Shown one piece after another: positions 706 through 38,557 of a stretch of 38,557 nt of DNA. Below the pieces are notes generated by a model. The model worked only from the letters and a program-made list of their open reading frames with translations. It did not search any database and was not told where the DNA came from. How positions within the stretch are numbered: the stretch's first letter is position 1; each line of letters starts with the position of its first letter. The stretch is taken from IMG/VR virus record IMGVR_UViG_2925891887_000008. The stretch is one strand, 5' to 3'. Both the position numbers and the translations under genes were made by a program. This DNA is from a virus (Duplodnaviria; Heunggongvirae; Uroviricota; Caudoviricetes).

Positions 706-714
706 TCGTCTGAC

Positions 715-735: not shown

Positions 736-1112
736 TACTGATTTTTTCTGTGCTGTGGTTTAAACAAACTACTGATAAATAAGAAACACAGTGCCCCCAG
801 CGCACACCAGAACACCGCGCTTAGTAACCATGCCAGCTCTTGCCAGAATGAGCGCGTCGGTGAAAAAAACAGCCGCATAATGAGCATCGAACAGGGTGCC
901 GCCAGCATTGCGCCAAACAGAGGTTTCAGGACTTCTCTACGCTGTGAAAAGAAGCTGGCGACTGCTCCAGGAAGAATGAAAAATAGCAAGCCGATTTCAG
1001 GATGCCCGGCAGCCCGAAAAGCGCCTTTCATGTGCGTCGCCAGAAAAAGGCACACCACAATGAAGAGGACAAAACAGCAGATTGCCCCCGCCCAACGTTG
1101 TTTATGTTTCAC
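735..1112 (-). CDS. ybjM: YbjM, inner-membrane protein
   Basis: 125-aa ORF that is strongly hydrophobic (about 4 transmembrane helices). Its position between grxA and ybjL matches K-12 synteny. Confidence 0.8.
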   Translation of the reverse strand: MKHKQRWAGAICCFVLFIVVCLFLATHMKGAFRAAGHPEIGLLFFILPGAVASFFSQRREVLKPLFGAMLAAPCSMLIMRLFFSPTRSFWQELAWLLSAVFWCALGALCFLFISSLFKPQHRKNQ

Positions 1113-1381
1113 TCGTTCCTCCTGACACTGCGTCTATCGAACACATTTTTCGCCAGTGTGGCGTTCAGTAAGATAAAGCCGCTTCGCATTCCATGCTAAT
1201 ATAGGCCAACGCAATTCATATAGCCGTTGATACCTAATGTGATTACACTAGTAAAATATATTGTTACTTTACTATCGTTTAGGTGCGCTGAATGAATCTG
1301 CGCCCTGAATTCTGGTAAAAAACATTATCGTAAATTACCATTTCTTTCAACAGCTTACTAGTAAACAAGAAGTTAGCCTCC

Positions 1382-3067
1382 GTGAATATAAACGTCGCCG
1401 AATTGTTAAATGGGAATTACATTTTGTTATTATTTGTGGTCCTCGCGCTTGGGCTATGTCTCGGAAAGTTACGACTTGGTTCGATCCAACTGGGTAATTC
1501 CATTGGCGTTTTAGTCGTATCGCTGTTATTAGGCCAACAACATTTCAGCATTAACACCGATGCGCTTAATCTTGGCTTTATGCTGTTTATTTTCTGCGTC
1601 GGGGTCGAAGCCGGACCGAACTTTTTTTCCATTTTTTTTCGCGATGGGAAAAATTACCTAATGTTAGCACTGGTGATGGTTGGCAGTGCGCTGGTGATCG
1701 CCTTAGGGTTAGGTAAGCTGTTTGGCTGGGATATTGGCCTGACGGCCGGTATGTTAGCAGGCTCTATGACGTCGACACCGGTTCTGGTCGGTGCTGGCGA
1801 TACACTGCGTCATTCCGGCATGGAAAGCAGGCAGCTCTCACTGGCACTGGATAATCTGAGCCTCGGGTATGCCTTAACCTATTTAATCGGTCTGGTGAGT
1901 TTGATTGTTGGTGCGCGTTACTTGCCGAAATTGCAGCATCAGGACTTACAGACCAGCGCCCAGCAAATCGCCCGCGAACGTGGCCTGGACACTGATGCCA
2001 ACCGTAAGGTTTATTTACCGGTGATCCGCGCCTATCGCGTCGGCCCGGAGCTGGTGGCCTGGACCGACGGCAAAAATCTGCGTGAACTGGGTATTTATCG
2101 ACAAACCGGCTGCTACATTGAACGTATTCGACGTAACGGGATTCTGGCAAATCCAGACGGTGATGCCGTGCTACAAATGGGCGATGAAATAGCGTTGGTA
2201 GGCTATCCCGACGCCCATGCCCGACTCGATCCCAGCTTCCGTAACGGTAAAGAAGTTTTCGATCGTGACCTTCTCGACATGCGTATCGTCACTGAAGAAG
2301 TGGTCGTTAAAAACCATAACGCTGTAGGTAAACGTCTCGCACAACTGAAGTTGACCGATCACGGTTGCTTCCTTAACCGCGTCATTCGTAGCCAGATTGA
2401 GATGCCGATAGATGACAACGTCGTGCTTAACAAAGGTGACGTTTTACAAGTCAGCGGTGATGCCCGTCGCGTAAAAACCATCGCCGATCGCATCGGCTTT
2501 ATCTCGATTCACAGCCAGGTCACTGACCTGCTGGCATTTTGCGCCTTCTTTGTTATTGGGCTGATGATCGGGATGATCACCTTCCAGTTCAGCACATTCA
2601 GTTTCGGCATGGGGAACGCTGCCGGGTTGTTATTCGCCGGAATTATGCTGGGCTTTATGCGTGCTAACCACCCGACCTTCGGTTACATTCCGCAAGGTGC
2701 ATTAAGCATGGTGAAAGAGTTCGGCTTGATGGTGTTTATGGCAGGCGTTGGTCTGAGCGCCGGTAGCGGTATTAATAACGGCCTGGGCGCGATTGGCGGT
2801 CAGATGTTGATTGCCGGATTAATTGTCAGTCTTGTGCCCGTGGTTATCTGTTTCTTGTTCGGTGCTTATGTATTGCGAATGAACCGCGCACTGTTGTTCG
2901 GCGCAATGATGGGCGCACGCACCTGCGCGCCGGCAATGGAGATCATCAGTGATACAGCTCGCAGTAACATCCCTGCGCTGGGCTATGCGGGCACCTACGC
3001 AATCGCCAACGTCCTGCTGACGCTGGCAGGGACAATCATCGTCATGGTATGGCCAGGATTAGGATAA
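1382..3067 (+). CDS. ybjL: YbjL, putative AAE-family transporter with two TrkA-C domains
   Basis: 561-aa ORF with a GTG start. [24 protein letters not shown]... is recognised as E. coli YbjL. Hydrophobic N- and C-terminal halves flank a soluble central region. Confidence 0.95.
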
Positions 3068-3143: not shown

Positions 3144-3222
3144 GCCACTGCTTTTCTTTGATGTCCCCATTTTGTGGAGCCCATCAACCCCGCCATTTCG
3201 GTTCAAGGTTGATGGGTTTTTT
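3144..3222 (+). ncRNA. rybB: RybB small regulatory RNA (Hfq-dependent, represses OMP mRNAs)
   Basis: GCCACTGCTTTTCTTTGATGTCCCCATTTTGTGGAGCCCATCAACCCCGCCATTTCGGTTCAAGGTTGATGGGTTTTTT is recognised as the RybB sequence. It ends in a terminator hairpin (CCCATCAACC/GGTTGATGGG) plus a U-tract and lies downstream of ybjL, as in K-12. Confidence 0.85.
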
Positions 3223-3280
3223 GTTGCCTAAAATTTATTCTATTTAAAATCATGAGGTTAGAAGCACTGTTTTTTAACGA

Positions 3281-3302
3281 TGGCGACAAAATGGCGGCAG
3301 CG
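3281..3302. repeat. Prophage attachment-site core, ogr-proximal copy
   Basis: TGGCGACAAAATGGCGGCAGCG is repeated at 38518-38539 with one mismatch (A3291 versus G38528). It abuts the ogr stop codon. Confidence 0.6.
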
Positions 3303-3521
3303 TCAAAGAGAGAGCGCCACCTGTCCTGATTTCATTGGATGCGGCTGAACCGGATTTGACTCTTTTGGCGTTGCAATCGAACGAACAAAAGTTTCATGGG
3401 TAACAAAAGTATGGCTGCAGTTAATATTCTGGCACTGGTTGTAACGCTCTTTGGTCAATGAAGATACCTGAAAACTGCTGCGAGTATGGGCGGCACTTCC
3501 ACACAGTGGGCAAATCATCAT
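3303..3521 (-). CDS. ogr: Late-gene transcriptional activator, Ogr (P2) / B (186) zinc-finger family
   Basis: Cys-X2-Cys-X22-Cys-X4-Cys motif (CPLCGSAAHTRSS...CQNINCSHTF), similar to P2 Ogr. I prefer the internal ATG at 3521 (72 aa, GGGGAGA upstream) over the track start at 3554. Confidence 0.85.
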   Translation of the reverse strand: MMICPLCGSAAHTRSSFQVSSLTKERYNQCQNINCSHTFVTHETFVRSIATPKESNPVQPHPMKSGQVALSL

Positions 3522-3611
3522 TTTTCGAGTTCTCCCCATTTTTGCTAAATTCACAATAATGATACCGCATTATTCCATTTTGCAAACTTAAAAGTTCTCC
3601 ATTGCGAAGAA

Positions 3612-10555: not shown

Positions 10556-10969
10556 TTATCTGCTTGCAGGGAAAACAGGCCAAATAATATCAGGTGCGGT
10601 GCTGGTATCTGTTGCCGTCACAGCCTCGATATAATCCAGCACAACGTTAAGTCGGGTAGTTTCCTCTTGCGTCAGTTTGCGCCCGGCCTGCAGCTTTAAC
10701 TGAATCACGCTGATATTGACCATTGCTGCGTCTATCAACGACTGTTTTTTCTGTTCAGCGTCAGCTACCAGTTCATCATGAGAACGTTCCGGAGTGGGTG
10801 GTGCAGTAAATACCCCGTCTGAATACGCCCAGCCGATTCCGGGCTGCTCACTGATATCAGAAATATTAATGAGCTGCAGATTATCCGGCACAGTGAATTC
10901 ATCCTCGCCATCCCAGACAATGACATTCACAACCATCCCATTTTCAATAACTGCATATGACGCATTCAT
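10556..10969 (-). CDS. G: Tail fiber assembly protein (gpG/Tfa family)
   Basis: ATG 10969 overlaps the H stop codon (TAATG) and gives 137 aa. The C-terminus ...LNVVLDYIEAVTATDTSTAPDIIWPVFP is typical of Tfa chaperones. Confidence 0.75.
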   Translation of the reverse strand: MNASYAVIENGMVVNVIVWDGEDEFTVPDNLQLINISDISEQPGIGWAYSDGVFTAPPTPERSHDELVADAEQKKQSLIDAAMVNISVIQLKLQAGRKLTQEETTRLNVVLDYIEAVTATDTSTAPDIIWPVFPASR

Positions 10970-12888
10970 TATGCAAACTCCTCGATAATACAAACCCCAT
11001 CAGCACCTTTCCCGCCCGTCATACTGGTTCCGCTATAACCTGCATCGTATGCACCACCTCCGCCTGAACCAAATGCCCTGCCTCTAACGCCACCGCCAGC
11101 GCCTGCGCGTCCACCGCCACCCCAGTACGATGTTCCGCCTTCACCGCTGACGCCGATATTTCCGGACTGACCGTCGCCTCCATCTCCACCAGTGATGCGG
11201 ATATCGCCAGTACTCGGCACACCTCCGTTACCGCCGTTTGTGTTTGTAACACCCACTTTCCCGCCACCTTCGCCACCAGGAGCAATTAACGATGCGAATA
11301 CGCTATTCCCGCCCCTGGTGCCGTTCGTTGCACTAACACCACCGGCCCCACCTGCGCCGATAGTGACTGGATAACTATTCTGTGTCGGGGTCATTATTGA
11401 AATTATTGTTCCACCGGCCCCACCGCCAGCACCGAAAAACGTTTCATTATTGGATGTAGCCTTGCAGCCGCCCCCTCCGCCACCGCCGCCCGTTATTGTG
11501 ACCCTGATCCGTTTTGTTTCTGGTGATGGGGTATACGTACCTGATGACGCGAAAGCCCGGGTACTCAGCCGGCGTCCCACGTATCCGCTTGTATCTCCCA
11601 AACCAAGATAACGAATAACCTCCTGTTTGCTTGTTTTAGCCAGAATATCCCGTCCAACATTAGTCAGGGTTGTCAGGCTGGCTGTATCATTCCCCGTAAA
11701 ATACGGTAGTTTGTCTGCCGCAGTGGCAAGGCCTGCCAGTGCGGTCAGTGTGGCGTCGGCAGGTTGTTTTCCATTGGCAAGGTCATATACAGCCTTCACA
11801 GCTTTTGGTGTGGCAGCCTGCGTTTCTGACGTGCTGTTAGTGGCGCTGCTGAGTTGCACGGTACCTTTTACCGTCAGTGAAGCTGCAGGCACATCCGTTA
11901 TCTGGCTCCACGGGTGCGTGTGACTGACAGGTGCCTTACCTGCTGCAAGGTCATATGCCGCCTTCACTGCCTTTGGTGTGGCAGCCTGCGTTTCTGACGT
12001 GCTGTTAGTGGCGCTGCTGAGTTGCACGGTGCCTTTTACCGTCAGTGAAGCTGCAGGCACATCCGTTATCTGATTCCACGGGTGTGTGTGACTGACAGGT
12101 GCCTTACCTGCTGCAAGGTCATATACAGCCTTCACTGCCTTTGGAGTGGCAGCCTGCGTTTCTGATGTGCTGTTAGTGGCGCTGCTGAGTTGCACGGTGC
12201 CTTTTACCGTCAGCGAGGCTGCAGGTACACCTGTTATCTGATTCCACGGGTGTGTGTGACTGGCGGATGCTTTACCTGCTGCAAGATCATATGCAGCCTT
12301 CACAGCCTTCGGTGTTGCGGCCAGTATTTCGGATTCACTGTTGGTCGCACTGCTTAACTGAGTAAAACCTTTTGCGGTCAGCGAGGCGTCCGGGTGACGT
12401 CGTGACTGTTCGTGCTCTGATATTTTGTCATCCACATACTTGCGGGTTGCCAGCACTACAGCAGGGTCGATTTTCAGGATGATATTGTCCGTACTGCTGG
12501 TAATCAGCACCATGCGCACGGTCTGGGTACGCCCACTGCCTTCAGCCAGTTGCGGCTTATAGCTTTCCGGGCAGTTACCCACGGCAATCAATGCCCCGGA
12601 CTCATCAAACAAGCCCACTTCACGTATCCACCAACCGCCCTCGTTTTCAGGGATCACCTGTTCAGCAATAATCTGGCTGCTGTTCTGCGGGTCGATATAA
12701 AGCATATTCAGCGCAGCCCGGCGTTTCTCATTTACCAGTGCCGTCTGCTTTGCGTCCGGCGTTGGCAATACTCCGCCGCCATCGCCCACCGCCATATGGG
12801 TAATTTTTAGCGGCACACCGAGCGCGGCGGCGCTGGCAAGTTTCGCCGCGCCAATATCCGTCAGCAGGGTATAAAATTTTGTGCTCAT
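10969..12888 (-). CDS. H: Tail fiber protein H
   Basis: 639 aa. The N-terminal 170 aa resemble P2 gpH (MAVGDGGG..., EHEQSRRHPDASLTAKGFTQLSSATNS). These are followed by 56-aa repeats with an SHTHPW motif and a glycine-rich C-terminal domain. Confidence 0.9.
   Translation of the reverse strand: MSTKFYTLLTDIGAAKLASAAALGVPLKITHMAVGDGGGVLPTPDAKQTALVNEKRRAALNMLYIDPQNSSQIIAEQVIPENEGGWWIREVGLFDESGALIAVGNCPESYKPQLAEGSGRTQTVRMVLITSSTDNIILKIDPAVVLATRKYVDDKISEHEQSRRHPDASLTAKGFTQLSSATNSESEILAATPKAVKAAYDLAAGKASASHTHPWNQITGVPAASLTVKGTVQLSSATNSTSETQAATPKAVKAVYDLAAGKAPVSHTHPWNQITDVPAASLTVKGTVQLSSATNSTSETQAATPKAVKAAYDLAAGKAPVSHTHPWSQITDVPAASLTVKGTVQLSSATNSTSETQAATPKAVKAVYDLANGKQPADATLTALAGLATAADKLPYFTGNDTASLTTLTNVGRDILAKTSKQEVIRYLGLGDTSGYVGRRLSTRAFASSGTYTPSPETKRIRVTITGGGGGGGGCKATSNNETFFGAGGGAGGTIISIMTPTQNSYPVTIGAGGAGGVSATNGTRGGNSVFASLIAPGGEGGGKVGVTNTNGGNGGVPSTGDIRITGGDGGDGQSGNIGVSGEGGTSYWGGGGRAGAGGGVRGRAFGSGGGGAYDAGYSGTSMTGGKGADGVCIIEEFA
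11770..12384 (-). repeat. About 3.6 tandem copies of a 168-bp (56-aa) unit inside H
   Basis: SLTVKGTVQLSSATNSTSETQAATPKAVKA[AV]YDLAAGKAPVSHTHPW[NS]QITDVPAA is repeated almost exactly. Near-identical DNA blocks are visible at 11.8-12.3 kb. Confidence 0.85.
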
Positions 12889-15312: not shown

Positions 15313-16147
15313 AGGGAAAGGTTGCCATCAATAGCAAGCAGTAGACAGCCTTTGTAATTGTATTAGACATAGAACAAATGCCTTTCAATGGTCTGCGTTA
15401 GAGCATTAATACGTTGCAAAAGGTCGAATGACGTTGCGCAAGTTAAGAAGTTCAATGCTCTTAAAAAAGCACTTGAAAGCAACGCCTTTAATTATTAAAA
15501 GCCAATTAATTTAGGCGGTTACTATGTTATCTTTGACACAAAAGATGTTTATTGACAATATATAAGTTCAATCTAACAAGGAGAAAAATTATGCCAAATG
15601 AAAATCTTGATATTGACTCAAGGACTACCGAGCAATTATACGAATGGTATTTGCAAGGAAATTTGATAGTCAATAGACGTTATCAAAGGAAACTTGTATG
15701 GTCTCTAGAAGAAAAGACTTCTTTAATATCTTCTATGCTGCAACAATATCCTATTCCGTTATTATTATTTGTTACCATCAATGAACAAAGAGAAATATTG
15801 GATGGAATGCAAAGATTAGAAGCAATTATGAGCTTCATCGAACAGAGATTTTCATTAGATGGACAATATTTTGATTTGGACTCTATAGCTTTAACAAAAC
15901 AACTTAAAGATAATGGAACTTTAATTCAGAAAGAACCAATCCTTTCCCGTGATTCTTCAGCAATTATTGCACGTTATCGATTTGCAATATCAGAATATAG
16001 CTCCACAAATGAAAATATTGACGAAGTATTCAGACGAATAAACTCAAACGGGAAGATTTTATCCAAACAAGAATTACGTAGTGCAGGAACAGGGTGATGC
16101 TGCCAACTTACTGATTTAGTGTATGATGGTGTTTTTGAGGTGCTCCA

Positions 16148-16423
16148 GTGGCTTCTGTTTCTATCAGCTGTCCCTCCTGTTCAGCTACTGACGGGGTGGT
16201 GCGTAACGGCAAAAGCACCGCCGGACATCAGCGCTATCTCTGCTCTCACTGCCGTAAAACATGGCAACTGCAGTTCACTTACACCGCTTCTCAACCCGGT
16301 ACGCACCAGAAAATCATTGATATGGCCATGAATGGCGTTGGATGCCGGGCAACCGCCCGCATTATGGGCGTTGGCCTCAACACGATTTTCCGCCATTTAA
16401 AAAACTCAGGCCGCAGTCGGTAA
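16148..16423 (+). CDS. insA: IS1 InsA
   Basis: 91 aa, [32 protein letters not shown]..., recognised as InsA. Confidence 0.95.
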
Positions 16424-16845
16424 CCTCGCGCATACAGCCGGGCAGTGACGTCATCGTCTGCGCGGAAATGGACGAACAGTGGGGATACGTCGGGGCTAAA
16501 TCGCGCCAGCGCTGGCTGTTTTACGCGTATGACAGGCTCCGGAAGACGGTTGTTGCGCACGTATTCGGTGAACGCACTATGGCGACACTGGGGCGTCTTA
16601 TGAGCCTGCTGTCACCCTTTGACGTGGTGATATGGATGACGGATGGCTGGCCGCTGTATGAATCCCGCCTGAAGGGAAAGCTGCACGTAATCAGCAAGCG
16701 ATATACGCAGCGAATTGAGCGGCATAACCTGAATCTGAGGCAGCACCTGGCACGGCTGGGACGGAAGTCGCTGTCGTTCTCAAAATCGGTGGAGCTGCAT
16801 GACAAAGTCATCGGGCATTATCTGAACATAAAACACTATCAATAA
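16342..16845 (+). CDS. insB: IS1 InsB frame (the transposase is made as InsAB' by a -1 frameshift)
   Basis: 167-aa InsB ORF. The A6C slippery run at 16399-16405 lies in the insA/insB overlap. Confidence 0.95.
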
Positions 16846-18218
16846 GTTGGAGTCATTACCCAGGAACAGTTAGTAACTTCTCTGAACTGGTCAGATCGAT
16901 ATCAACATCGATCAGAGGTGATACTAGCCATTCTGACATTATGAATCTCCAGCAAATGCACAAAATTTCAATCAGTAACGATAGATTGGAGTACGGGGTA
17001 AATATCGATAACCACTTTTATATAAAACATCATATTTTAACAAGACGAAGTATTCGTGATTCTGATGACGAGGAATTGATAGCCAATATCCTTGCATATA
17101 TCAGTCTAGAAGAAAAACCCACATCTGGGTCAACTTCTCTCGACACATTCTATGGTCAAGGAAACTCCTCTCATGCTCATGGTGTCAGACAGCAATTAGA
17201 GTCTTTCATTCAAACCAATAACGCTGCCACTATTAAGCAGAATTTCATAGCTGTATATGAATTAATTACAAGCCTATATGACGGAAAAAATGATACTTTT
17301 AGAAGCCATATTTTAGGGGAGGATAATTCATCTCAAGAATGCCCTCGTTATTATCAAGCTGTGTTTTTGTCTATTTATGAACTTCTTTTCAACCAAAATA
17401 TGCAATTAATTGATAAAGAAGGTTTATTCTCGCAATTAAAAAACACTGGCAATACCATAATTATGGTTACCGATGGTGGCCGCTGGGCTGCAAGCACTCG
17501 TGAAAAAAGTGTTAATGATCTTGTTGCATTAATAAGTCGTTACTTCCAACCTGCTCCTCAAAAGTATGTGAATCATGCTTGGGTAACTGAAATTCGCAAT
17601 CTATTAACAAATTCTAGAACTGAACAACCAAGTTATGATTTCAAACAAGGGTTCTTTAATTTATCAGGTAAAAATGAATTTGATGATGAATGTTTAAAAG
17701 GAATATTACAAACTTGCGTAGCAATAAATAATATTGGAAAAAGCGCAAAAGGCTATATTTTAGTTGGTATTGCCGAAAATAAATTAACCGCAGATAGAAT
17801 TCAACATTTATATGGAGTAAATTCAATTGAGTTCAATGGGTTCTATATAAACGGAATTGATCATGAAGCAATGTTAGTCTCTGGTAGCATTGATGATTAC
17901 TTTATGTTAATAAAACAAAAAATACAAGGATACAATTTCACTGAAACTCTAAAACAGCAGATACTTAAGAATATTGAGTTTTGCTCTTACAATGGCTTAC
18001 ACATACTCAAGATAACTATTCAGAGCACAGGTCAAATTTGCGACTTTGAGAATATGTTTTATATCAGACAAGGCTCATCGACTGATCCAGTTACGGATAC
18101 ACAAAAAATCTCAGCTCTATTTAACTCTTACATGAACAGCTAATCAATCGCCATCTCCACTGGAGCTGGCTTATGGATAAAAACAAAAGACGAGAGGGCT
18201 ATTTAAACCTCCTCGTCT

Positions 18219-25559: not shown

Positions 25560-26626
25560 TGGGAAAGAGTAAGAAGAACCGCGCTGCGGCGACGAAACAG
25601 ATCCAGCTTAAAAGCCAGACTACAGCCGAAGCATTCAGCTTCGGCGATCCCGTTCCTGTTCTGGACCGCCGAGAACTGCTGGACTATGTGGAATGCGTAC
25701 AGATGGACCGTTGGTATGAGCCGCCCGTCAGCTTTGACGGACTGGCGCGCACCTTCCGCGCTGCCGTGCATCACAGTTCCCCGATTGCAGTAAAGTGCAA
25801 CATTCTGACCAGTACCTATATCTCTCATCCACTGCTCAGCCAACAGGCTTTTTCGCGTTTTGTGCAGGACTATCTGGTATTTGGTAACGCCTACCTGGAG
25901 AAACGCACGAATCGATTCGGTGAAGTTATCGCCCTTGAGCCTGCGCTGGCAAAATACACCCGACGCGGGTTAGACCTGGATACCTACTGGTTTGTGCAAT
26001 ACGGTATGGCCACGCAGCCGTATCAGTTCACGAAAGGCAGCATTTTTCATCTGATGGAACCGGACATCAACCAGGAGATCTACGGCCTGCCCGGTTATCT
26101 TTCAGCCATTCCGTCCGCCCTGCTCAATGAGTCCGCCACGCTGTTCCGTCGAAAGTATTACATTAACGGCAGTCATGCTGGCTTCATCATGTACATGACC
26201 GACGCTGCGCAGAACCAGGAGGATGTGAACAACCTCCGCAACGCGATGAAAAGCGCCAAAGGTCCAGGCAACTTCCGCAATCTGTTTATGTACTCGCCTA
26301 ACGGCAAAAAGGACGGACTTCAGATTATCCCGTTGTCAGAAGTCGCAGCGAAGGATGAGTTTCTGAATATCAAGAACGTGAGCCGCGATGACATGATGGC
26401 TGCGCATCGTGTGCCGCCACAAATGATGGGGATAATTCCCCAGAACATCGGCGGCTTTGGGGATGTAAGCAAAGCAAGTAAGGTATTTGTTCGTAACGAA
26501 CTGACGCCTTTACAAAGGCGAATACAAGAACTTAATGAGTGGCTATGTGACGAGGTTATCAAGTTTGACCCCTACAAACTTGATATTGAAGATAACAATC
26601 ACTCTGCTATCATACCTATCATCTAA
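25559..26626 (+). CDS. Q: Portal protein Q
   Basis: ATG 25559 gives 355 aa (the track start at 25556 is a TTG). It is syntenic after P and transcribed toward cos, as in P2. Confidence 0.9.
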   Translation: MGKSKKNRAAATKQIQLKSQTTAEAFSFGDPVPVLDRRELLDYVECVQMDRWYEPPVSFDGLARTFRAAVHHSSPIAVKCNILTSTYISHPLLSQQAFSRFVQDYLVFGNAYLEKRTNRFGEVIALEPALAKYTRRGLDLDTYWFVQYGMATQPYQFTKGSIFHLMEPDINQEIYGLPGYLSAIPSALLNESATLFRRKYYINGSHAGFIMYMTDAAQNQEDVNNLRNAMKSAKGPGNFRNLFMYSPNGKKDGLQIIPLSEVAAKDEFLNIKNVSRDDMMAAHRVPPQMMGIIPQNIGGFGDVSKASKVFVRNELTPLQRRIQELNEWLCDEVIKFDPYKLDIEDNNHSAIIPII

Positions 26627-26631
26627 ATTTC

Positions 26632-26654
26632 AACCGCCATCAGGCGGTTTTTTG
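26632..26654 (+). terminator. Rho-independent terminator after Q
   Basis: Stem AACCGCC, loop atca, stem GGCGGTT, followed by TTTTTG. Confidence 0.7.
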
Positions 26655-26710
26655 TTTCCAAACCAAACCTACTATGATACACACAGTAGGAAAAAAATTG
26701 GAGCATTTAT

Positions 26711-27337
26711 ATGGATATCGAAAAGCTAAAAGAATTTTACGAAAAACTTTACTTTCAGGAAACGGAAAATAAAGACAAGATTTACAACAGAATTCAAATG
26801 ATATTTGGATTAATAGTAATCGACGCAACTATCGTAACATATCTGCTTAAAAACACATCCTTTGAAAATCATGCATTCTTTGCCTGCATTGTTATAGGAC
26901 TTTCATTATTATCAGTGTTTTTTATTTATAAAGCCTGCATGCTCCTAAAAAAAGCATTTTGGGGTAATGAATTCAAATACATTCCCAAACCTAAGGAAAT
27001 AGACGAATACTACAATGGCCTCATTAAATATGAAGCAGACTATAAAAAATATTGTGATAATAATGGGCTTACCTATAATGGTGAGCACTCATCAAGTAAA
27101 AAGTTCAATGAATACTTAGTAAAACAACTAGTAGAGTGTACTAGTTGGAATACTAAGAAAAATGAAATGAGAACAAGTCAAATATATCGAGCCACTAAAT
27201 TCTTTTTTTTCTCACTAATTCCATTAGTGATAGCGGTTGGCTTTTTTTTAGCGATGGATCTCGATTCAGCCTCGCCAAGGAAGACTAATGAGCCACATTT
27301 CATTATTATACCTGTAGATAATATCAGGAGATTATGA
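26711..27337 (+). CDS. Hypothetical membrane protein with three predicted transmembrane helices (cargo)
   Basis: 208-aa ORF with GGAG 7 nt before the ATG. It is AT-rich, with hydrophobic helices at about aa 28-46, 55-73 and 164-183 and a Lys/Tyr/Asn-rich soluble middle. I recognise no family. Confidence 0.7.
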   Translation: MDIEKLKEFYEKLYFQETENKDKIYNRIQMIFGLIVIDATIVTYLLKNTSFENHAFFACIVIGLSLLSVFFIYKACMLLKKAFWGNEFKYIPKPKEIDEYYNGLIKYEADYKKYCDNNGLTYNGEHSSSKKFNEYLVKQLVECTSWNTKKNEMRTSQIYRATKFFFFSLIPLVIAVGFFLAMDLDSASPRKTNEPHFIIIPVDNIRRL

Positions 27338-27462
27338 TGGGAAAAGCCCCTACACCTAACAAGCCACCAGCGAAGACTCCAACTCCGCCGACACCGCCGA
27401 CACCGCCTAAATCTAGGCTAGTGAGAGACGATGATTCGAAAGCCAAAAGCAAAAGAGGTTAA
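27334..27462 (+). CDS. Polyproline micro-ORF 1 (42 aa; 41 aa if ATG 27337 is used)
   Basis: MMGKAPTPNKPPAKTPTPPTPPTPPKSRLVRDDDSKAKSKRG. AGGAG at 27326-27330 precedes it, and the ATGATG start overlaps the stop of the 208-aa gene. Hand-translated, because it falls below the ORF-track cutoff. Confidence 0.55.
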   Translation: MMGKAPTPNKPPAKTPTPPTPPTPPKSRLVRDDDSKAKSKRG

Positions 27463-27468
27463 AGTATC

Positions 27469-27642
27469 ATGATAAAGCCCAGCAACGAAGGAACTGGAAA
27501 ACCAAATTCTACAAGTAAATCACCTGTACCGCCTCAGCCGCCTCAGCCGCCTCAGCCGCCTCAGCCGCCTCAAACAAGGTTAGTACGAGAAAGCTTTGGA
27601 GAATACATTTCAAAGAGAGATACGAAAAATGACAAAAAATAA
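27469..27642 (+). CDS. Polyproline micro-ORF 2 (57 aa)
   Basis: MIKPSNEGTGKPNSTSKSPVPPQPPQPPQPPQPPQTRLVRESFGEYISKRDTKNDKK. It starts 6 nt after the stop of micro-ORF 1 and shares the PP-x-[ST]-R-L-V-R-[DE] motif with it. Confidence 0.55.
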   Translation: MIKPSNEGTGKPNSTSKSPVPPQPPQPPQPPQPPQTRLVRESFGEYISKRDTKNDKK

Positions 27643-27736
27643 CGAGCAAAAACCACCACCACCACCACCACCACCACCACTACCACCATCGTCCCGCATG
27701 CTATTTGATCACGCGGCCCCCCCTAAGAAGAAATAA
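27629..27736 (+). CDS. Polyproline micro-ORF 3 (35 aa)
   Basis: MTKNNEQKPPPPPPPPPLPPSSRMLFDHAAPPKKK. It overlaps the end of micro-ORF 2 by 14 nt in another frame and has a purine-rich stretch upstream. A terminator follows directly. Confidence 0.5.
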   Translation: MTKNNEQKPPPPPPPPPLPPSSRMLFDHAAPPKKK

Positions 27737-27740
27737 CCTT

Positions 27741-27770
27741 AAGCCTGCGACTTAGCAGGCTTTCTTCATT
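27741..27770 (+). terminator. Rho-independent terminator closing the cargo operon
   Basis: Stem AAGCCTGC, loop gactta, stem GCAGGCTT, followed by TCTTCATT. It begins 5 nt after the stop of micro-ORF 3. Confidence 0.6.
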
Positions 27771-27778
27771 AGCGCGCG

Positions 27779-27797
27779 CTCGTATCCCCGCCACGCC
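27779..27797 (-). other. Probable cos cohesive-end sequence
   Basis: The reverse complement GGCGTGGCGGGGATACGAG shares its first 13 nt with the 186 cohesive end, and 12 of those 13 with the P2 end, as I remember them (GGCGTGGCGGGGAAAGCAT and GGCGAGGCGGGGAAAGCAC). Its orientation relative to Q matches P2. Confidence 0.5.
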
Positions 27798-28139
27798 TGC
27801 CCGCTTTATGTAGTGGTTTTCATGCAGGTGCATGATCTACGCAAAAGCCCGCCAGTTCTGGCGGGCCTTAGCAAAAACGATCCTCAAACGATCATGCAAT
27901 CTCATGCAGCATAGACATGCACAGACGAGTAAAGCGAATCGGACTTTACGCAAGGTGAACTCCTCAGCGGGCATAATCAGTATGTCGGAAGATCTCTAAA
28001 AATGAATAATTCGGTTAACAGGTATGCTTACAAAAGCATATATTTGATTAAAAATCATGTAAGGGGGAGGATCTCAAACTGAATCGCCACGGGTTTTACA
28101 AATTTCGATAGTCTCTCTAACGTTTCGGCTGAGGTCAAA

Positions 28140-28565
28140 ATGAAAAGCTTTTACGTATTAATTTTAATTCTGGTTGCAAGCTTTGTTAGCGTCCCAGTTC
28201 AGGCGGTAACAGCTAAAAACTATGAGAAAGGAACTAAAGCTCAACAGAAATCAATATCTTACCTTTCATGTGCATTCTATGGCAGTAGCACACAATTAGA
28301 TCCTAGCTACACGGAGCAAGTACCTACAGCCGATATCAAGATATTACAGAAAGCAGCTTACCACGCTTACAACGATGCGCTCTCATACTTTGGCTATGAG
28401 GAACCAGATCACGAACAACGCATAATTGATTATGCTGAATTTGTGGCGTCGCAAGAAGCTGTGTTATGGGATAAGCCGGGAATGAATGGAAAGCAGGTAA
28501 CACTAATTGCTCGTTCTCTCTACAATGAGAGTAACTGTAACTTGTTACTGGACTCAATTAAGTAG
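28140..28565 (+). CDS. Hypothetical exported protein (cargo)
   Basis: 141 aa with GAGG upstream. It has a Sec-type signal peptide, MKSFYVLILILVASFVSVPVQA/VT, and is AT-rich. I recognise no family. Confidence 0.65.
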   Translation: MKSFYVLILILVASFVSVPVQAVTAKNYEKGTKAQQKSISYLSCAFYGSSTQLDPSYTEQVPTADIKILQKAAYHAYNDALSYFGYEEPDHEQRIIDYAEFVASQEAVLWDKPGMNGKQVTLIARSLYNESNCNLLLDSIK

Positions 28566-28724
28566 GAAAAAGATGGTATTTTGCCCGTAGTTTCAACCTT
28601 AATCTCCGAACCTGTCGCAGAACGGGCGTTCACTCATCAAATAAACGCCACACCTAACGCCTCACTGTACTCGTTGTTCAACCTTGCTGACGCCAGAACC
28701 AAGTTCAGACGCCAGCAACTTTTC

Positions 28725-28958
28725 TTAATGCAGCCAGCTGTCGTCTTCCCACACCTTCTGCATAATCTTCATCACTTGTTTTCTTTCTTCGTCCAGTTGC
28801 AGTCCGGTCAGTTCCACACCGTTAGAGCTACCTTTGCGGATGCGAATTACCGTTTTGGGATACAGGGGGCGCAGATTGCGGTAAAGCTCGGATTCAAGGG
28901 CGTCCAGGGTAGACTGGCTAATCTTCTGCTCTTTATCGATCATTATTTCAATGCGCAT
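28725..28958 (-). CDS. DinI-family protein
   Basis: From ATG 28958 (GAGGTGA upstream) the ORF is 77 aa: MRIEIMIDKEQKISQSTLDALESELYRNLRPLYPKTVIRIRKGSSNGVELTGLQLDEERKQVMKIMQKVWEDDSWL. It aligns with E. coli DinI (MRIEVTIAKT...ILQETWESADDW). Confidence 0.75.
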   Translation of the reverse strand: MRIEIMIDKEQKISQSTLDALESELYRNLRPLYPKTVIRIRKGSSNGVELTGLQLDEERKQVMKIMQKVWEDDSWLH

Positions 28959-28968
28959 AAAGGTCACC

Positions 28969-29157
28969 TCAGCTGATGACATCCATTGAGCGGTTGTATT
29001 CGTGGGTTCTGATTTTTGCCATGAGTTCATCTGTCAGTTCAGAAACCCACTGCAAAGCCAGCCCCTTCTCTTCATCACTACACTCACTAGCCGCTACAAG
29101 CTTAAGAAAAAAATCAATGCGCTGGAGCTTCAAAGACTCCAAAAAATAGTCCTGCAT
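28969..29157 (-). CDS. Small SOS-controlled protein in the position of the 186 Tum antirepressor
   Basis: ATG 29157 with GGAGGA upstream gives 62 aa (MQDYFLESLKLQRIDFF...). LexA boxes lie immediately upstream and a DinI-like gene 10 nt downstream. The assignment as antirepressor rests on position only. Confidence 0.45.
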   Translation of the reverse strand: MQDYFLESLKLQRIDFFLKLVAASECSDEEKGLALQWVSELTDELMAKIRTHEYNRSMDVIS

Positions 29158-34481: not shown

Positions 34482-34505
34482 GATAAAAGTTCACTTGGAG
34501 TGACC

Positions 34506-35075
34506 ATGAATTTGGAGAAAGGCGGACGAGGCGCTATAGAGCGCATGGTAGAAGCTTATGGATTCAAAACTCGACAGGCGTTGTGCGATCATTTAGGAAT
34601 CTCTAAAAGTACACTCGCTACACGCTACATGCGTGACTCATTCCCAGCAGAATGGGTAATCCAGTGCGCCCTTGAAACGGGCACCTCGCTTAATTGGCTC
34701 ACAACTGGACATGGTTCAAAGCAAACTTCAGGTAATACAAATACGATGGAAGTTGCTAAATATGTATTATCTGATGGTGCCTTGCGTGAAGACGGTTTTT
34801 ATATTTTTGATAAGGGATTTCTACCCTCTACGTTTAAAAAACCTTTTGTCATCACAGATAACAATTCTGAATTTATTTGTGATAAAGAATTTGATGATAT
34901 ACGTGATGGTAAATGGGTAATAAGTATTGATGGCGAAATAACAATCCGCGACATTACTCGTTTACCCGGTGGAAGAATCTTCGTTGAAGGTGGAAACAGA
35001 ACCTTCGAGTGCAAGATAGAAGATGTTGAAATAATTGGAAAAATTATAAGTTTGACAATTAAGTACGTTAGGTAA
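34506..35075 (+). CDS. cI: CI immunity repressor (186 type)
   Basis: ATG 34506 (GGAG 5 nt upstream) gives 189 aa. The N-terminal HTH region ...MVEAYGFKTRQALCDHLGISKSTLATRYMRD...CALETGTSLNWLTTGHG resembles 186 CI. Confidence 0.8.
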   Translation: MNLEKGGRGAIERMVEAYGFKTRQALCDHLGISKSTLATRYMRDSFPAEWVIQCALETGTSLNWLTTGHGSKQTSGNTNTMEVAKYVLSDGALREDGFYIFDKGFLPSTFKKPFVITDNNSEFICDKEFDDIRDGKWVISIDGEITIRDITRLPGGRIFVEGGNRTFECKIEDVEIIGKIISLTIKYVR

Positions 35076-35090: not shown

Positions 35091-35282
35091 ATGCTTGGTA
35101 AGGTATTTTTTGTGGTTTTATCATGCTCTTTGTTATTAAACCCACTAACTACCTATGCTAAAAATTATCCTTGTTCTGGGAAAAAGGGAGGTGTCTCTCA
35201 CTGTACCTCCGATGGAAAGTTCGTTTGCAATGATGGAACTATTAGTAAATCAAAAAAAATCTGTACTAAAAACTCGCGATAA
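35091..35282 (+). CDS. Small Cys-rich exported protein (lysogeny-operon cargo)
   Basis: 63 aa. GGAGG precedes the ATG. It has a signal peptide ([23 protein letters not shown]) and a mature part with 4 Cys ([32 protein letters not shown]). Confidence 0.55.
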
Positions 35283-35433: not shown

Positions 35434-36749
35434 GGGTCTTCCCTTGTTGTGGTGGCTGAAGGCATGATAATGGTGTATTTAATCGCCAGAGGTCACCGCC
35501 ATGGACGAAAAGTCCCTCTACGCTCATATTCTCAACCTGTCCGATCCGTGGCAGGTAAAGTCCCTTTCTCTCGATGAAAATGCCGGTTCTGTTACTGTCA
35601 CTATTGAGATCGCTGAAAACACCCGGCTAGCCTGTCCGACCTGCGGTAAATCCTGTTCTGTTCACGATCACCGTCATCGTAAATGGCGCCATCTTGATAC
35701 CTGCCAGTTCACCACTATTGTTGAAGCCGATGTTCCACGAATTATGTGTCCGGAGCATGGCTGCCTGACGTTGCCTGTTCCGTGGGCTGGCCCCGGAAGC
35801 CGGTATACGTTGCTATTCGAATCGTTCGTTCTCTCATGGCTGAAAATCAGCACCGTTGATGCTGTCAGGAAGCAACTTAAGCTCAGTTGGAATGCGGTTG
35901 ACGGCATTATGACCCGGGCAGTTAAGCGAGGTCTTGCCCGGATAAAAAAGCCATTATCCGCCCGTCATATGAATGTGGATGAGGTCGCCTTTAAAAAAGG
36001 ACATCGTTACATAACGGTGATCTCCGATCGCGATGGTCGGGCGCTGGCCTTAACGGATGATCGCGGCACAGAGAGTCTTGCCGGCTATCTTCGCACGCTC
36101 ACTGATGGGCAGTTGCTGGCTATCAAAACGCTCTCAATGGACATGAACGCGGGCTATATAAGAGCAGCGCGTATCCACTTACCCAGTGCGGTTGAGAAAA
36201 TCGCCTTTGACCGCTTCCATGTGGCGAAGCAACTGGGCGAGGTAGTTGATAAAACCCGTCAGAATGAACATCCGCACCTCCCTGTTGAAAGCCGACACCA
36301 GGCAAAAGGAACCCGCTTCCTGTGGCAGTACAGCGATAAGTGGATGACCGAATCCCGGCAGGAAAAGCTGATGTGGCTGCGTGCACAGATGAAGCTGACG
36401 AGCCAGTGCTGGGCGCTGAAAGAGCTGGCAAAGGATATCTGGAACAGGCCATGGAGCGAGGAAAGACGGAGTGACTGGCAGAGATGGTTGGCGCTGGCGG
36501 CTAACAGTGACGTTCCCATGATGAAAAATGCCGCGAAAACGATAGGAAAAAGGCTGTACGGGATCCTGAATGCGATGCGACACAGTGTCTCAAACGGAAA
36601 TGCGGAGGCACTTAACAGCAAGATCAGGCTGCTGAGGATAAAAGCCAGGGGATACCGAAACCGGGAGCGCTTTAAACTGGGGGTGATGTTCCACTACGGA
36701 AAGCTGAATATGGCGTTCTGAGCCTTCCCACCATGATCGGGGAAGACCC
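35434..36749 (+). mobile_element. ISL3-family insertion sequence (1316 bp)
   Basis: Imperfect terminal inverted repeats: GGGTCTTCCC...TGGTGG at 35434, and its reverse complement ending at 36749. The element is flanked by the 8-bp direct duplication TTATACAT (35426-35433 and 36750-36757). Confidence 0.85.
35501..36721 (+). CDS. ISL3-family transposase
   Basis: 406 aa with an N-terminal zinc-finger region (CPTCGK...H..H) and a DDE-type core. Overall it resembles ISL3-family transposases. Confidence 0.8.
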   Translation: MDEKSLYAHILNLSDPWQVKSLSLDENAGSVTVTIEIAENTRLACPTCGKSCSVHDHRHRKWRHLDTCQFTTIVEADVPRIMCPEHGCLTLPVPWAGPGSRYTLLFESFVLSWLKISTVDAVRKQLKLSWNAVDGIMTRAVKRGLARIKKPLSARHMNVDEVAFKKGHRYITVISDRDGRALALTDDRGTESLAGYLRTLTDGQLLAIKTLSMDMNAGYIRAARIHLPSAVEKIAFDRFHVAKQLGEVVDKTRQNEHPHLPVESRHQAKGTRFLWQYSDKWMTESRQEKLMWLRAQMKLTSQCWALKELAKDIWNRPWSEERRSDWQRWLALAANSDVPMMKNAAKTIGKRLYGILNAMRHSVSNGNAEALNSKIRLLRIKARGYRNRERFKLGVMFHYGKLNMAF

Positions 36750-36792: not shown

Positions 36793-37824
36793 ATGGCAGT
36801 ACGAAAACTCACCACAGGAAAATGGCTTTGCGAATGTTACCCCGCCGGACGTAGTGGGCGTCGTGTGCGTAAACAATTCGCCACCAAAGGCGAAGCACTG
36901 GCTTTTGAGCGTCACACGATGGAAGAAACCGAAGCAAAGCCCTGGCTGGGCGAATCAGTAGATCGTCGAACCCTGAAAGACGTGGTTGAGCTATGGTTCA
37001 AACTACATGGTAAATCTCTGACTGCTGGGCAGCATGTCTATGACAAATTGCTGCTGATGGTTGACGCTCTGGGCAATCCCCTTGCAACCGATCTCACATC
37101 TAAAATGTTTGCCCATTATCGAGATAAACGACTGACAGGTGAGATCTACTTCAGCGAGAAATGGAAGAAAGGGGCCAGCCCGGTCACCATTAACCTGGAG
37201 CAAAGCTATCTAAGTAGTGTTTTTAGCGAACTATCCCGCCTGGGCGAATGGTCGTATCCAAACCCACTGGAGAACATGCGAAAATTCACCATCGCAGAAA
37301 AAGAGATGGCATGGCTTACCCATGAGCAGATTGTTGAACTGCTGGATGATTGCAAACGTCAGGACCCAATTCTGGCACTGGTAGTCAAGATATGCTTAAG
37401 CACAGGCGCACGCTGGCGAGAAGCAATAAACCTAACCCGATCACAGGTGACCAAATACCGAATTACCTTTGTAAGAACGAAGGGGAAGAAAAACAGAAGC
37501 ATCCCTATCAGTAAAGAGCTTTATGAAGAGATCATGGCGCTTGATGGGTTCAATTTCTTCACAGACTGCTATTTTCAATTTTTATCCGTGATGGAAAAAA
37601 CGTCTATCGTGCTCCCTCGCGGTCAACTTACACACGTTCTGCGTCATACGTTTGCGGCGCATTTCATGATGTCGGGTGGAAACATCCTTGCTTTGCAAAA
37701 AATCCTCGGACATCACGACATAAAAATGACTATGCGTTATGCTCATCTATCACCTGATCACTTAGAGACAGCTCTTCGTTTCAATCCACTAGCAACTTTG
37801 GATGTTACTAAATCAGATTCTTAA
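36793..37824 (+). CDS. int: Tyrosine integrase (P2/186 type)
   Basis: ATG 36793 (MAVRKLTTGKWLCECYP...) gives 343 aa. Catalytic signature: ARWREAINL, HVLRHTFA and MRYAHL. The track start at 36733 lies inside the IS end. Confidence 0.9.
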   Translation: MAVRKLTTGKWLCECYPAGRSGRRVRKQFATKGEALAFERHTMEETEAKPWLGESVDRRTLKDVVELWFKLHGKSLTAGQHVYDKLLLMVDALGNPLATDLTSKMFAHYRDKRLTGEIYFSEKWKKGASPVTINLEQSYLSSVFSELSRLGEWSYPNPLENMRKFTIAEKEMAWLTHEQIVELLDDCKRQDPILALVVKICLSTGARWREAINLTRSQVTKYRITFVRTKGKKNRSIPISKELYEEIMALDGFNFFTDCYFQFLSVMEKTSIVLPRGQLTHVLRHTFAAHFMMSGGNILALQKILGHHDIKMTMRYAHLSPDHLETALRFNPLATLDVTKSDS

Positions 37825-37834
37825 AGGTTCAAGC

Positions 37835-38557
37835 ATGGTTAAGTTTTTGTTTCAATTCCCAATATTCGACTTCTCCTTAACATTTGATATTATCGAGACG
37901 TTAATCACTCATAGCGAATCATCAATCGCTAAGGGTATAGCAGAATATAAAGACAAAGGACCTGAAGAATATATAATTGAAATATCTCCGGAAGATGGTG
38001 TATATCAGTCAATTGATCATTACATGGGACTCACCAGCTCATCGCTAGATCTCGATGAAATGTTTTTAGAATACTACCCAAGTATTATCCGCAGGTCAGT
38101 ATTCTTAACTATATTCGGAATTTTTGAGCACGAAATAGAAAAATTCTGTAACAACTTTGCTAATAGACATCATTCTCCTATAAATGTTTCAGATCTCAAA
38201 GGAAGTGGATTTGAGAGGAGCCATCTATTTATCAAAAAAATGATAGGGATGAAGTCAACATCCCACTATTCGAATATCAAAAAAATAACAAAATTAAGAA
38301 ACAGTTGTGCGCATAATGATGCAAAATACTTAGAAAACGATGGGCAAAATATTAAAAGCATTATTGAACTTATAGAAAAATATCCTGATTTTTTTAAAAA
38401 AGATGGAAAACAGGTCCTATTTATGGAGGGCTCGTTAAGCATGATCTTGAACTCATTCAAAGAGTATCTTTCTGATGTTGAAAGAGCCTTAGATGAATTC
38501 GAAAAACAAAGCACTAGTGGCGACAAAGTGGCGGCAGCGGTTGGCATTACCCCGTAA
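37835..38557 (+). CDS. Hypothetical protein with an Rx4H (HEPN-like) motif; cargo between int and att
   Basis: About 240 aa from ATG 37835 (the track start at 37802 overlaps int). It is AT-rich and helical-looking. LRNSCAHN (38297-38314 encodes R-N-S-C-A-H) fits the HEPN Rx4-6H ribonuclease motif. The last 13 codons span the att repeat and the DNA beyond it. Confidence 0.6.
   Translation: MVKFLFQFPIFDFSLTFDIIETLITHSESSIAKGIAEYKDKGPEEYIIEISPEDGVYQSIDHYMGLTSSSLDLDEMFLEYYPSIIRRSVFLTIFGIFEHEIEKFCNNFANRHHSPINVSDLKGSGFERSHLFIKKMIGMKSTSHYSNIKKITKLRNSCAHNDAKYLENDGQNIKSIIELIEKYPDFFKKDGKQVLFMEGSLSMILNSFKEYLSDVERALDEFEKQSTSGDKVAAAVGITP
38518..38539. repeat. Prophage attachment-site core, int-proximal copy
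   Basis: TGGCGACAAAGTGGCGGCAGCG matches 3281-3302 at 21 of 22 positions. Confidence 0.6.

What the first reader, a model, noticed from the sequence alone, without database searches (positions are those of the whole stretch)
37825..38557. ORF with an Rx4H (HEPN-like) motif between int and att, whose C-terminus is rewritten by integration
Downstream of int, and probably co-transcribed with it, lies an AT-rich ORF of about 240 aa. It contains KLRNSCAHN, a good match to the HEPN Rx4-6H RNase motif (commonly phi-R-N-x-x-x-H). HEPN proteins are common toxins and abortive-infection effectors. No adjacent antitoxin-like gene is visible, which is unusual if the RNase is active. The ORF also runs through the 22-bp att repeat. 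In the prophage it ends ...GDKVAAA-VGITP, using DNA beyond the repeat. Joining the phage arms as in an excised circle predicts ...GDK(V/M)AAA-SKRERHLS, a convergent overlap with the end of ogr. The integrated and excised states would therefore encode different C-termini.
Basis: partly seen in the sequence, partly recalled or inferred. Interest (0 to 1): 0.6.

Follow-up and report, generated by a model that had tools for sequence, protein, structure and literature searches.

The report
Prophage HEPN gene overlapping an integrase arm site
A P2/186-like prophage inserted in the rybB small-RNA gene carries an untested, HEPN-type (probable RNase) gene just after its integrase, but the 22-bp repeat it runs through is an integrase arm-binding site rather than the crossover site, so integration does not change the protein's end.

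Summary

The att claim is wrong. Empty E. coli sites, a non-integrated phage genome (Klebsiella phage KP12) and the att annotated in phage 4LV2017 all place the core at TGGGTTTTTTGTT, the terminator of the sRNA gene rybB (window 3213-3238). attR lies about 75 bp beyond the window end.

The 22-bp repeat matches the published 186-type Int arm-site consensus (tgccGCCActt). One copy sits on each arm of attP. The ORF's last 13 codons (SGDKVAAAVGITP) are the old integrase tail, kept because that DNA is the arm site. They are the same in prophage and excised phage.

The int-to-arm slot varies between prophages: empty, 89-aa ORF, 110-aa ORF or this gene. It is a reported minor defence hotspot. Homologues sit alone in the same slot and in P4-satellite hotspots.

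Best reading: a standalone HEPN abortive-infection candidate, function untested. This is a new member of a known kind.

The parts
37835..38557 (+). Cargo ORF of 240 aa, a HEPN-like protein (WP_000238243.1). It starts 10 nt after the int stop, preceded by AAAGG. Residues 1-227 form the conserved family body. Residues 228-240 are the inherited integrase tail.
   Evidence: AF2 model pLDDT 86.7, with the tail 230-240 below 50. pN 0.11-0.12 against saturated pS about 0.75 versus the Enterobacter and Cronobacter orthologues.
38297..38314 (+). Codons for R155-N156-S-C-A-H160, the predicted HEPN Rx4H catalytic motif.
   Evidence: R155 invariant; N156 and H160 at least 90% conserved in 91 sequences of 19-59% identity. 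The motif sits at the end of helix 145-161 in the model, where PMC3710099 places it, at the end of helix 3.
38518..38539 (+). P-arm integrase arm-type binding site: two tandem TGGCGRCA units 11 bp apart. It lies inside the last 13 codons of the ORF.
   Evidence: The reverse complement CGCTGCCGCCACTTTGTCGCCA contains the 186-type arm consensus tgccGCCActt exactly (PMC3448106). Constant in all four slot states. The final 42 nt are 95% identical between genera, against 76% for the ORF body.
3281..3302 (+). P'-arm integrase arm-type binding site, the second copy of the 22-mer with one mismatch. It abuts the ogr stop codon.
   Evidence: Present in the same position in the contiguous attP of phage KP12.
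3213..3238 (+). True attL core, TGGGTTTTTTGTT-GC-CTAAAATTTAT. The crossover falls within 3213-3225. attR (TGGGTTTTTTGTTATCTAAAATTTAT) lies about 74-99 bp beyond the window end.
   Evidence: Empty site L003. attR in L002 4933-4958. The att annotated in phage 4LV2017 is ATGGGTTTTTTGTTGCCTG.
3147..3225 (+). rybB sRNA gene. Its terminator T-run is the integration target.
   Evidence: Rfam RF00110, 105 bits, full length. P2-like prophages integrated in rybB are reported in PMC3032704, PMC10121019 and PMC4048246.
36793..37824 (+). 186-type tyrosine integrase. Its C-terminal tail after ...NPLATL was replaced by DVTKSDS* when the cargo was inserted.
   Evidence: The cargo-less relative ends ...NPLATLPSGDKVAAAVGITP*. 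Other states end ...ATLPTSIASF* and ...ATLEV*.
3303..3554 (-). ogr, the late-gene activator, at the other end of the prophage next to the P' arm.
   Evidence: Annotated OGR in KP12.

Best explanation
The window holds a 186-type member of the P2-like phages (Peduoviridae), integrated into the 3' terminator of the sRNA gene rybB. Its attP is laid out as: P-arm site (22-mer), about 91 bp, core TGGGTTTTTTGTT..., 43 bp, P'-arm site (22-mer). In cargo-free relatives the integrase gene reads through the P-arm site and ends ...PSGDKVAAAVGITP*. In this lineage an AT-rich gene of about 0.73 kb was inserted between the integrase codons ...ATL and the arm site. The integrase gained a new short tail. The inserted ORF has no stop codon of its own, so it runs in frame through the arm site and uses the old integrase stop. 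Its last 13 residues are therefore a passenger of a DNA-level constraint (Int binding). They are the same in the integrated and excised states. The protein body is a HEPN-superfamily domain (R155-N156-x3-H160 plus E98). It most likely acts as a metal-independent RNase, probably as a dimer or higher oligomer. It is probably co-transcribed with the lysogenic cI-int operon and works as a standalone abortive-infection or anti-phage effector. On this reading it stays inactive until an infecting phage triggers it, as in HepS, AbiD/F and PrrC-type systems. Shown: the ORF, motif conservation, purifying selection, att and arm anatomy, slot variability, and gene context. Inferred: RNase activity, oligomeric state, expression in the lysogen, and the defence role.
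For: att and arm anatomy: the empty site lacks the 22-mer, and 0 of 5,426 genomes match a 22-mer-based attB. The predicted attP is contiguous in Klebsiella phage KP12 at 100% coverage and 96.9% identity. Phage 4LV2017 has att annotated at the same core. RybB ends exactly at the core, and rybB is a known P2-like integration site. The 22-mer equals the 186-type arm consensus, with direct repeats on both sides of the core. Tail origin: the cargo-less int ends with the same 13 residues. Remote homologues in the same slot stop just before the arm site. The tail is missing from homologues of 60% identity or less, has pLDDT below 50, and its DNA is 95% conserved against 76% for the body. HEPN. Defence context: the slot has four states in E. 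coli, namely empty, an 89-aa ORF (209 genomes), a 110-aa ORF (71) and this gene (24). The int-att region is reported as a minor P2 defence hotspot. Homologues lie alone after int in Serratia, Enterobacter and metagenome P2-like prophages, and after the primase in P4-like satellites. No neighbour is conserved.
Confidence: 0.75

Rival explanations
1. One reading: the 22-bp repeat is the att core, so the ORF crosses the crossover point and has different C-termini in the prophage (...VGITP) and the excised phage (...SKRERHLS).
For: The 22-mer is a real, non-chance direct repeat near both prophage ends, and the ORF reads through it.
Against: The empty site has neither the 22-mer nor about 60 and 115 bp of flanking sequence. 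No genome contains such an attB. The non-integrated phage KP12 has ...GCGGTTGGCATTACCCCGTAA directly after the 22-mer. The att core is annotated elsewhere in 4LV2017. The 22-mer matches the arm-site consensus.
Confidence: 0.02
2. The HEPN protein is the toxin of an addiction or toxin-antitoxin module that stabilises the prophage. Its antitoxin would be unrecognised: a small RNA, an overlapping small ORF, or the integrase operon itself.
For: The closest structural matches are HEPN toxins of HEPN-MNT pairs (HepT). A 93-aa antisense ORF overlaps 38266-38547.
Against: No MNT or other neighbour is conserved across eight independent contexts. Rfam finds no RNA in the region. The gene sits alone in P4 and P2 cargo slots.
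Confidence: 0.1
3. The protein serves the phage's own cycle or counter-defence, for example degrading host or competitor RNA during lytic growth or establishment, rather than protecting the lysogen.
For: One homologue lies near psiB and ssb on a conjugative plasmid, a region often linked to early-expressed establishment genes. The gene is on the cI-int strand, but its transcription was not measured.
Against: The slot is optional: roughly 780 of 1,084 prophages at this site carry none of the three cargo types found here. The gene also occurs in P4-satellite defence hotspots. The int-att slot is reported as a defence hotspot.
Confidence: 0.1
4. The domain is a non-catalytic, HEPN-like helical bundle with a binding or regulatory role.
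For: The fold evidence alone is weak, and some HEPN families are non-catalytic (PMC3710099).
Against: R, N and H of the motif, plus an acidic residue in helix 2, are conserved across more than 2,000 clusters. This pattern marks the active HEPN RNases.
Confidence: 0.05

Closest known systems
HepS, the single-protein HEPN abortive-infection system of the Salmonella Gifsy-1 prophage (PMC13043305)
   Different: No detectable sequence similarity. It sits in a different phage type and genome position. Trigger, substrate and oligomeric state are unknown here.
RiboL-PSP-HEPN (PF18735) and Cthe_2314-like HEPN (PF18730), with the related AbiD/AbiF Abi_2 (PF07751)
   Same: An R-N-x3-H motif at the equivalent profile position. 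These are the best Pfam hits for the protein and its relatives: RiboL-PSP in 19 of 91, best E 4.2e-8. UniRef names this exact sequence Cthe-2314-like HEPN.
   Different: This protein scores 17.1 bits against a 28.4-bit cutoff for PF18735, and it is not listed for PF18730 in my scan. The roughly 230-aa architecture with a beta-hairpin between helices 1 and 2 looks like a separate subfamily.
HEPN-MNT (HepT-MntA) type VII toxin-antitoxin toxins
   Different: No adjacent nucleotidyltransferase antitoxin in any context. The protein is about 100 residues longer.
Phage 186 / P2 attP architecture, with arm-type Int sites flanking a core (PMC3448106)
   Same: Two direct repeats matching tgccGCCActt on each side of the core, with int adjacent to attP and ogr on the other side.
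   Different: The target is the rybB terminator rather than a tRNA gene. The P-arm site lies inside a coding sequence: int in cargo-free phages, the HEPN ORF here.
[quoted passage not shown]
   Same: A variable cargo slot at a fixed position between conserved landmarks. The preprint lists int-att as holding 3% of P2 defence systems. Homologues occur in P4 hotspots.
   Different: The gene is not recognised by PADLOC 2023 models. None of the three cargo types in this slot has a known function.

Membership tests
HEPN superfamily (Anantharaman et al. 2013, PMC3710099) | Conserved Rx4-6H motif with a polar residue (N/D/H) right after the R | tested here: met
   R155-N156-S-C-A-H160. R is invariant, and N and H are at least 90% conserved in 91 relatives of 19-59% identity.
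HEPN superfamily (Anantharaman et al. 2013, PMC3710099) | Motif located at the end of helix 3, with an insert between helices 2 and 3 | tested here: met
   In the AF2 model (pLDDT 86.7) the motif closes helix 145-161, and residues 112-144 form the insert after the long helix 73-111 (criterion). This rests on a model, not a solved structure.
HEPN superfamily (Anantharaman et al. 2013, PMC3710099) | Conserved acidic residue in helix 2 (typically Ex3[KR]) | tested here: met
   E98 is at least 90% conserved and lies in helix 73-111. The exact Ex3[KR] spacing is absent: the sequence is E98-H-E-I-E-K103.
HEPN superfamily (Anantharaman et al. 2013, PMC3710099) | Four-helix up-down bundle similar to solved HEPN domains | tested here: inconclusive
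HEPN superfamily (Anantharaman et al. 2013, PMC3710099) | Metal-independent RNase activity | not testable with these tools
   Needs purified protein and R155A/H160A controls.
Pfam PF18735 RiboL-PSP-HEPN / PF18730 Cthe_2314-like HEPN | Score at or above the family's gathering threshold | tested here: not met
   PF18735 gives 17.1 bits against a 28.4 cutoff, and PF18730 is not reported for this protein. Some remote relatives reach E 4.2e-8 on PF18735. UniRef nevertheless names the exact sequence Cthe-2314-like HEPN.
HEPN-MNT toxin-antitoxin | Adjacent minimal nucleotidyltransferase antitoxin gene | tested here: not met
   No such neighbour here or in eight other contexts.
186-type integrase arm-binding site | [quoted passage not shown] | tested here: met
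   The P-arm copy contains TGCCGCCACTT exactly, followed by TGTCGCCA. The P' copy has one mismatch. The two-unit 22-mer occurs at only those two places in 38.6 kb, with 0 expected by chance.
186-type integrase arm-binding site | Bound by the N-terminal domain of Int | not testable with these tools
   Needs EMSA or footprinting.
   It is absent from the empty site, and 0 of 5,426 genomes match a 22-mer-based attB. The flanks of both copies are contiguous phage DNA in KP12.
att core at the rybB terminator (TGGGTTTTTTGTT...) | Present once in empty sites, duplicated at both prophage ends, and single in non-integrated phage DNA | tested here: met
   Empty site; attL 3213-3238; attR in L002, L004 and L005; single copy in KP12; overlaps the RybB 3' end.
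Anti-phage defence / abortive-infection gene | Protects against phage infection when expressed | not testable with these tools
   Only contextual support: location in P2 and P4 cargo hotspots.

The most novel reading that the evidence does not exclude
This roughly 230-aa protein represents a large, wholly uncharacterised, standalone HEPN family (more than 2,000 clusters at 50% identity). It would be a new single-gene abortive-infection system carried in the int-attP slot of rybB-integrating P2-like phages and in P4 satellites, with its own phage trigger and RNA target. A further twist is that the E. coli clade has lost its stop codon and is translated through the integrase arm-binding site, so Int occupancy of that site could in principle affect expression of the gene.
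Probability: 0.45. Interest if true: 0.45.

Novelty: new member of a known kind. Interest (0 to 1): 0.3.

Why it matters
It corrects the map of this prophage. The crossover is in the rybB terminator, and the eye-catching 22-bp repeat is a pair of Int arm sites, so no integration-dependent protein isoform exists. It also gives a clear example of a coding sequence constrained by an overlapping recombinase-binding site: an inserted gene inherited the integrase's last 13 codons. Finally, it nominates a widespread, unnamed HEPN family that recurs in P2 and P4 cargo slots as a testable single-gene anti-phage candidate. None of this is surprising to a specialist, because the rybB integration site, the int-att hotspot and the HEPN label already exist in the literature or databases.

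Tried and rejected
These led nowhere or were rejected.
- A reconstructed attB using the 22-mer as core was tested and rejected: 0 of 5,426 genomes reach 80% coverage or more.
- NCBIfam gave no hit.
- PADLOC gave only weak HEPN-type hits, E 0.004-0.013.
- PHROGs matched one family of unknown function, phrog_21382 at 2.7e-9, and gave a weak Abi hit.
- Foldseek against PDB had nothing significant.
- Foldseek against BFVD gave one uncharacterised Myoviridae protein at E 2e-4.
- The afdb50 library was unavailable.
- Profile searches of PDB sequences with A1 and A2 found nothing.
- A literature search for WP_000238243 returned no papers.
- Rfam and tRNA scans found no RNA gene in or next to the ORF, so there is no support for an RNA antitoxin or a tRNA target site.
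- The alternative start at 37802 (251 aa, overlapping int) was rejected, because homologues and RefSeq start at MVKF.
- My first four family scans used a wrong frame and failed.

Full report
**What is there**

The window starts in E. coli chromosome (grxA, ybjM, ybjL, 1-3067). It then runs through a P2/186-like prophage: ogr 3303-3554(-), tail and head genes, cI 34500-35075, int 36793-37824. Ten bases after the int stop, an AT-rich ORF begins at ATG 37835 and ends at the last base of the window, 38557 (240 aa). RefSeq annotates exactly this ORF as hypothetical protein WP_000238243.1. It occurs in 24 of 5,426 complete E. coli genomes. KLRNSCAHN is residues 153-161. The 22-bp repeat TGGCGACAAA(A/G)TGGCGGCAGCG lies at 3281-3302 and 38518-38539. 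A two-unit pattern of it is found only there, with none expected by chance. The raw observations are therefore correct.

**The att claim fails**

None holds it; the best matches skip about 180 bp in the middle.

- An unoccupied site reads ...CCCATCAACCCCGCCATTTCGGTTCAAGGTTGATGGGTTTTTTGTTATCTAAAATTTATCTACTACCC....
- The same TGGGTTTTTTGTT..CTAAAATTTAT occurs at window 3213-3238 (attL).
- It occurs again about 75-100 bp past the window end in the identical prophage of strain AR_0019 (attR).

The 22-mers and the sequence between them and the core are therefore phage DNA. I reconstructed attP from this core and searched the phage collection. Klebsiella phage KP12, which has int and ogr contiguous, contains it in one piece at 100% coverage and 96.9% identity: int...AGTGGCGACAAAGTGGCGGCAGCGGTTGGCATTACCCCGTAA, 70 bp, AAATGGGTTTTTTGTTGTCTGAAATTTATG, 40 bp, GATGGCGACAAATTGGCGGCAGAGTCAAAG...ogr. 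The depositors of phage 4LV2017 annotate att as ATGGGTTTTTTGTTGCCTG.

Rfam places the sRNA gene rybB at 3147-3225, ending exactly on the crossover segment. P2-like (Felsduovirus) prophages integrated in rybB are on record for E. coli W, B and Crooks, for an E. coli pan-genome hotspot, and for Klebsiella (PMC3032704, PMC10121019, PMC4048246).

**What the 22-mer is**

[quoted passage not shown] The reverse complement of the attR-side 22-mer is CGC-TGCCGCCACTT-TGTCGCCA. That is an exact match followed by a second unit 11 bp away. The other copy has one mismatch. The repeat is therefore the pair of P and P' arm sites, about 91 bp and 43 bp from the core.

**Where the ORF's tail comes from**

In a cargo-free relative at the same site, int itself reads through the arm site and ends ...NPLATLPSGDKVAAAVGITP*. 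Here int ends ...NPLATLDVTKSDS* and the new ORF ends ...EKQSTSGDKVAAAVGITP*. So about 0.73 kb was inserted between the ATL codons and the arm site, and the inserted ORF borrows the old int frame and stop. Several results support this.

- The tail is present only in homologues of 73% identity or more that sit in equivalent prophages of Raoultella, Cronobacter, Phytobacter, Citrobacter and Enterobacter. More distant homologues end near residue 227.
- In Serratia, Enterobacter and a metagenome prophage, homologues of 45-60% identity occupy the same slot but stop 0-13 nt before the arm site.
- The tail is disordered in the model (pLDDT below 50).
- Its DNA is 95% identical between genera, whereas the ORF body is 76% identical with saturated synonymous sites (pS about 0.75, pN about 0.12).

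This is the signature of a DNA-level constraint. The C-terminus is the same in the integrated and excised states.

**The slot is variable**

About 1,084 of 5,426 E. coli genomes carry this int and arm at rybB. The sequence between ...ATL and the arm site takes four forms:

- nothing;
- an 89-aa ORF (strain D7 type, 209 genomes);
- a 110-aa ORF (BL21 and E. coli C type, 71 genomes);
- this gene (24 genomes).

The other two cargo ORFs match no Pfam or PADLOC model. A 2026 preprint lists int-att as a minor defence hotspot of P2-like phages, holding 3% of their systems.

**The protein**

It has 40 close-to-moderate homologues, all unnamed except for a UniRef label 'Cthe-2314-like HEPN'. The exact sequence carries that label too and is seen on 551 contigs. 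A profile search of 1.84 billion representatives finds 2,108 clusters (554 at E of 1e-10 or better), nearly all 210-250 aa and matched end to end.

In 91 sequences of 19-59% identity, R155 is invariant. N156, H160, E28, P82, R86, E98 and C105 are at least 90% conserved. Pfam hits are sub-threshold for this protein (RiboL-PSP-HEPN E 0.0055, Abi_2 0.038). Across relatives, most of the recurring hits are HEPN families, and RiboL-PSP (19 of 91, best 4.2e-8) is by far the commonest; the non-HEPN hits are isolated. PADLOC gives weak HEPN-type hits only.

**Context and likely function**

No neighbour is conserved.

- Homologues sit directly after int in P2-like prophages.
- Others sit directly after the primase in P4-like satellites, once beside a DUF4238 protein. 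DUF4238 is itself a validated single-gene defence.
- One sits on a conjugative plasmid.

A standalone HEPN gene in a prophage is not odd: HepS of Gifsy-1 is precisely that. The best-supported mechanism is a trigger-activated RNase acting as an abortive-infection effector for the lysogen. This part is inference; nothing here tests activity.

**Verdict**

The HEPN interpretation is supported. The integration-dependent C-terminus is refuted. What remains is an uncharacterised HEPN candidate defence gene in a known type of slot, with the modest curiosity that it is translated through an Int arm site. Novelty: new member of a known kind. Interest: 0.3.

Noticed in passing
window 3147-3225: A full-length rybB sRNA gene (Rfam, 105 bits). 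The prophage is integrated in its terminator T-run, and attL rebuilds the hairpin and T-run. The phage's own attP carries a similar hairpin (AACCCGTTTACATAAATGGGTTTTTT) that probably terminates the int-cargo transcript.
   Followed up: yes
window 35434-36749: An ISL3-family insertion sequence (406-aa transposase, 35501-36721) with an 8-bp target duplication TTATACAT. It is absent from the otherwise identical prophage of strain AR_0019. It sits 44 bp upstream of the int ATG, inside a promoter-like TTGACA-17-AAAAAT. It may uncouple int and the HEPN gene from the cI operon and could make this prophage defective for excision.
   Followed up: partly
window 15552-18143: A low-GC cargo island within the tail genes. 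A 181-aa ORF with a GmrSD_N/DUF262 domain (PADLOC NsnA 1e-21, PD-T4-2_A 5e-18) appears truncated by an IS1 element (its IS1 transposase ORF is 16342-16845). A 400-aa Schlafen/AlbA_2-domain protein follows (16941-18143). This is probably a defence system disrupted by IS1.
   Followed up: partly
window 26500-29000: A second low-GC cargo region after the capsid-packaging genes, at the old/tin-type hotspot position. ORFs 26711-27337 (weak PADLOC '2TM effector' hit), 28140-28565 and 28581-28976 have no family match. A 9-bp tandem repeat, CCGCCTCAG about 5 times, lies at 27529-27573.
   Followed up: partly
L002 4880-4912 (about 38579-38611 in extended window coordinates, just beyond the window end): Two tandem copies of CTAACTTATTGTTTT, 18 bp apart, lie in the P arm between the Int arm site and the core. 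They are conserved in the E. coli prophages (L001, L004, L005) and in phage KP12. They are candidate binding sites for an accessory factor such as IHF or the Apl/Cox-type excisionase.
   Followed up: no
window 35091-35282, and relatives L001, L006, L009, L012, L022, L024: The interval between cI and int is another variable slot. Here it holds only a 63-aa ORF (plus the IS). Relatives carry a 558-aa 'chromosome segregation ATPase', KAP-family NTPases of 483-488 aa, or unknown proteins of 289, 526, or 341 and 226 aa. This matches the int-primase/cI-int hotspot described for P2-related phages.
   Followed up: no
window 37803-37824, and L001, L004, L005: The integrase tolerates four different C-terminal tails after ...RFNPLATL: PSGDKVAAAVGITP, DVTKSDS, PTSIASF and EV. 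The last roughly 14 residues are therefore dispensable for Int. In cargo-free phages they are conserved only because the DNA is the arm site.
   Followed up: partly
window 11760-12354: Three tandem copies of a 168-bp unit (84-92% identical) lie inside the 639-aa ORF 10969-12888(-), next to the tail genes.
   Followed up: no
L007 4869-6687 and L008 263-2081: In a Raoultella P4-like satellite, the 41%-identical HEPN homologue lies directly downstream of a DUF4238 protein in two independent contigs. DUF4238 alone is a validated anti-T7 defence. Whether the pair works together is unknown.
   Followed up: no
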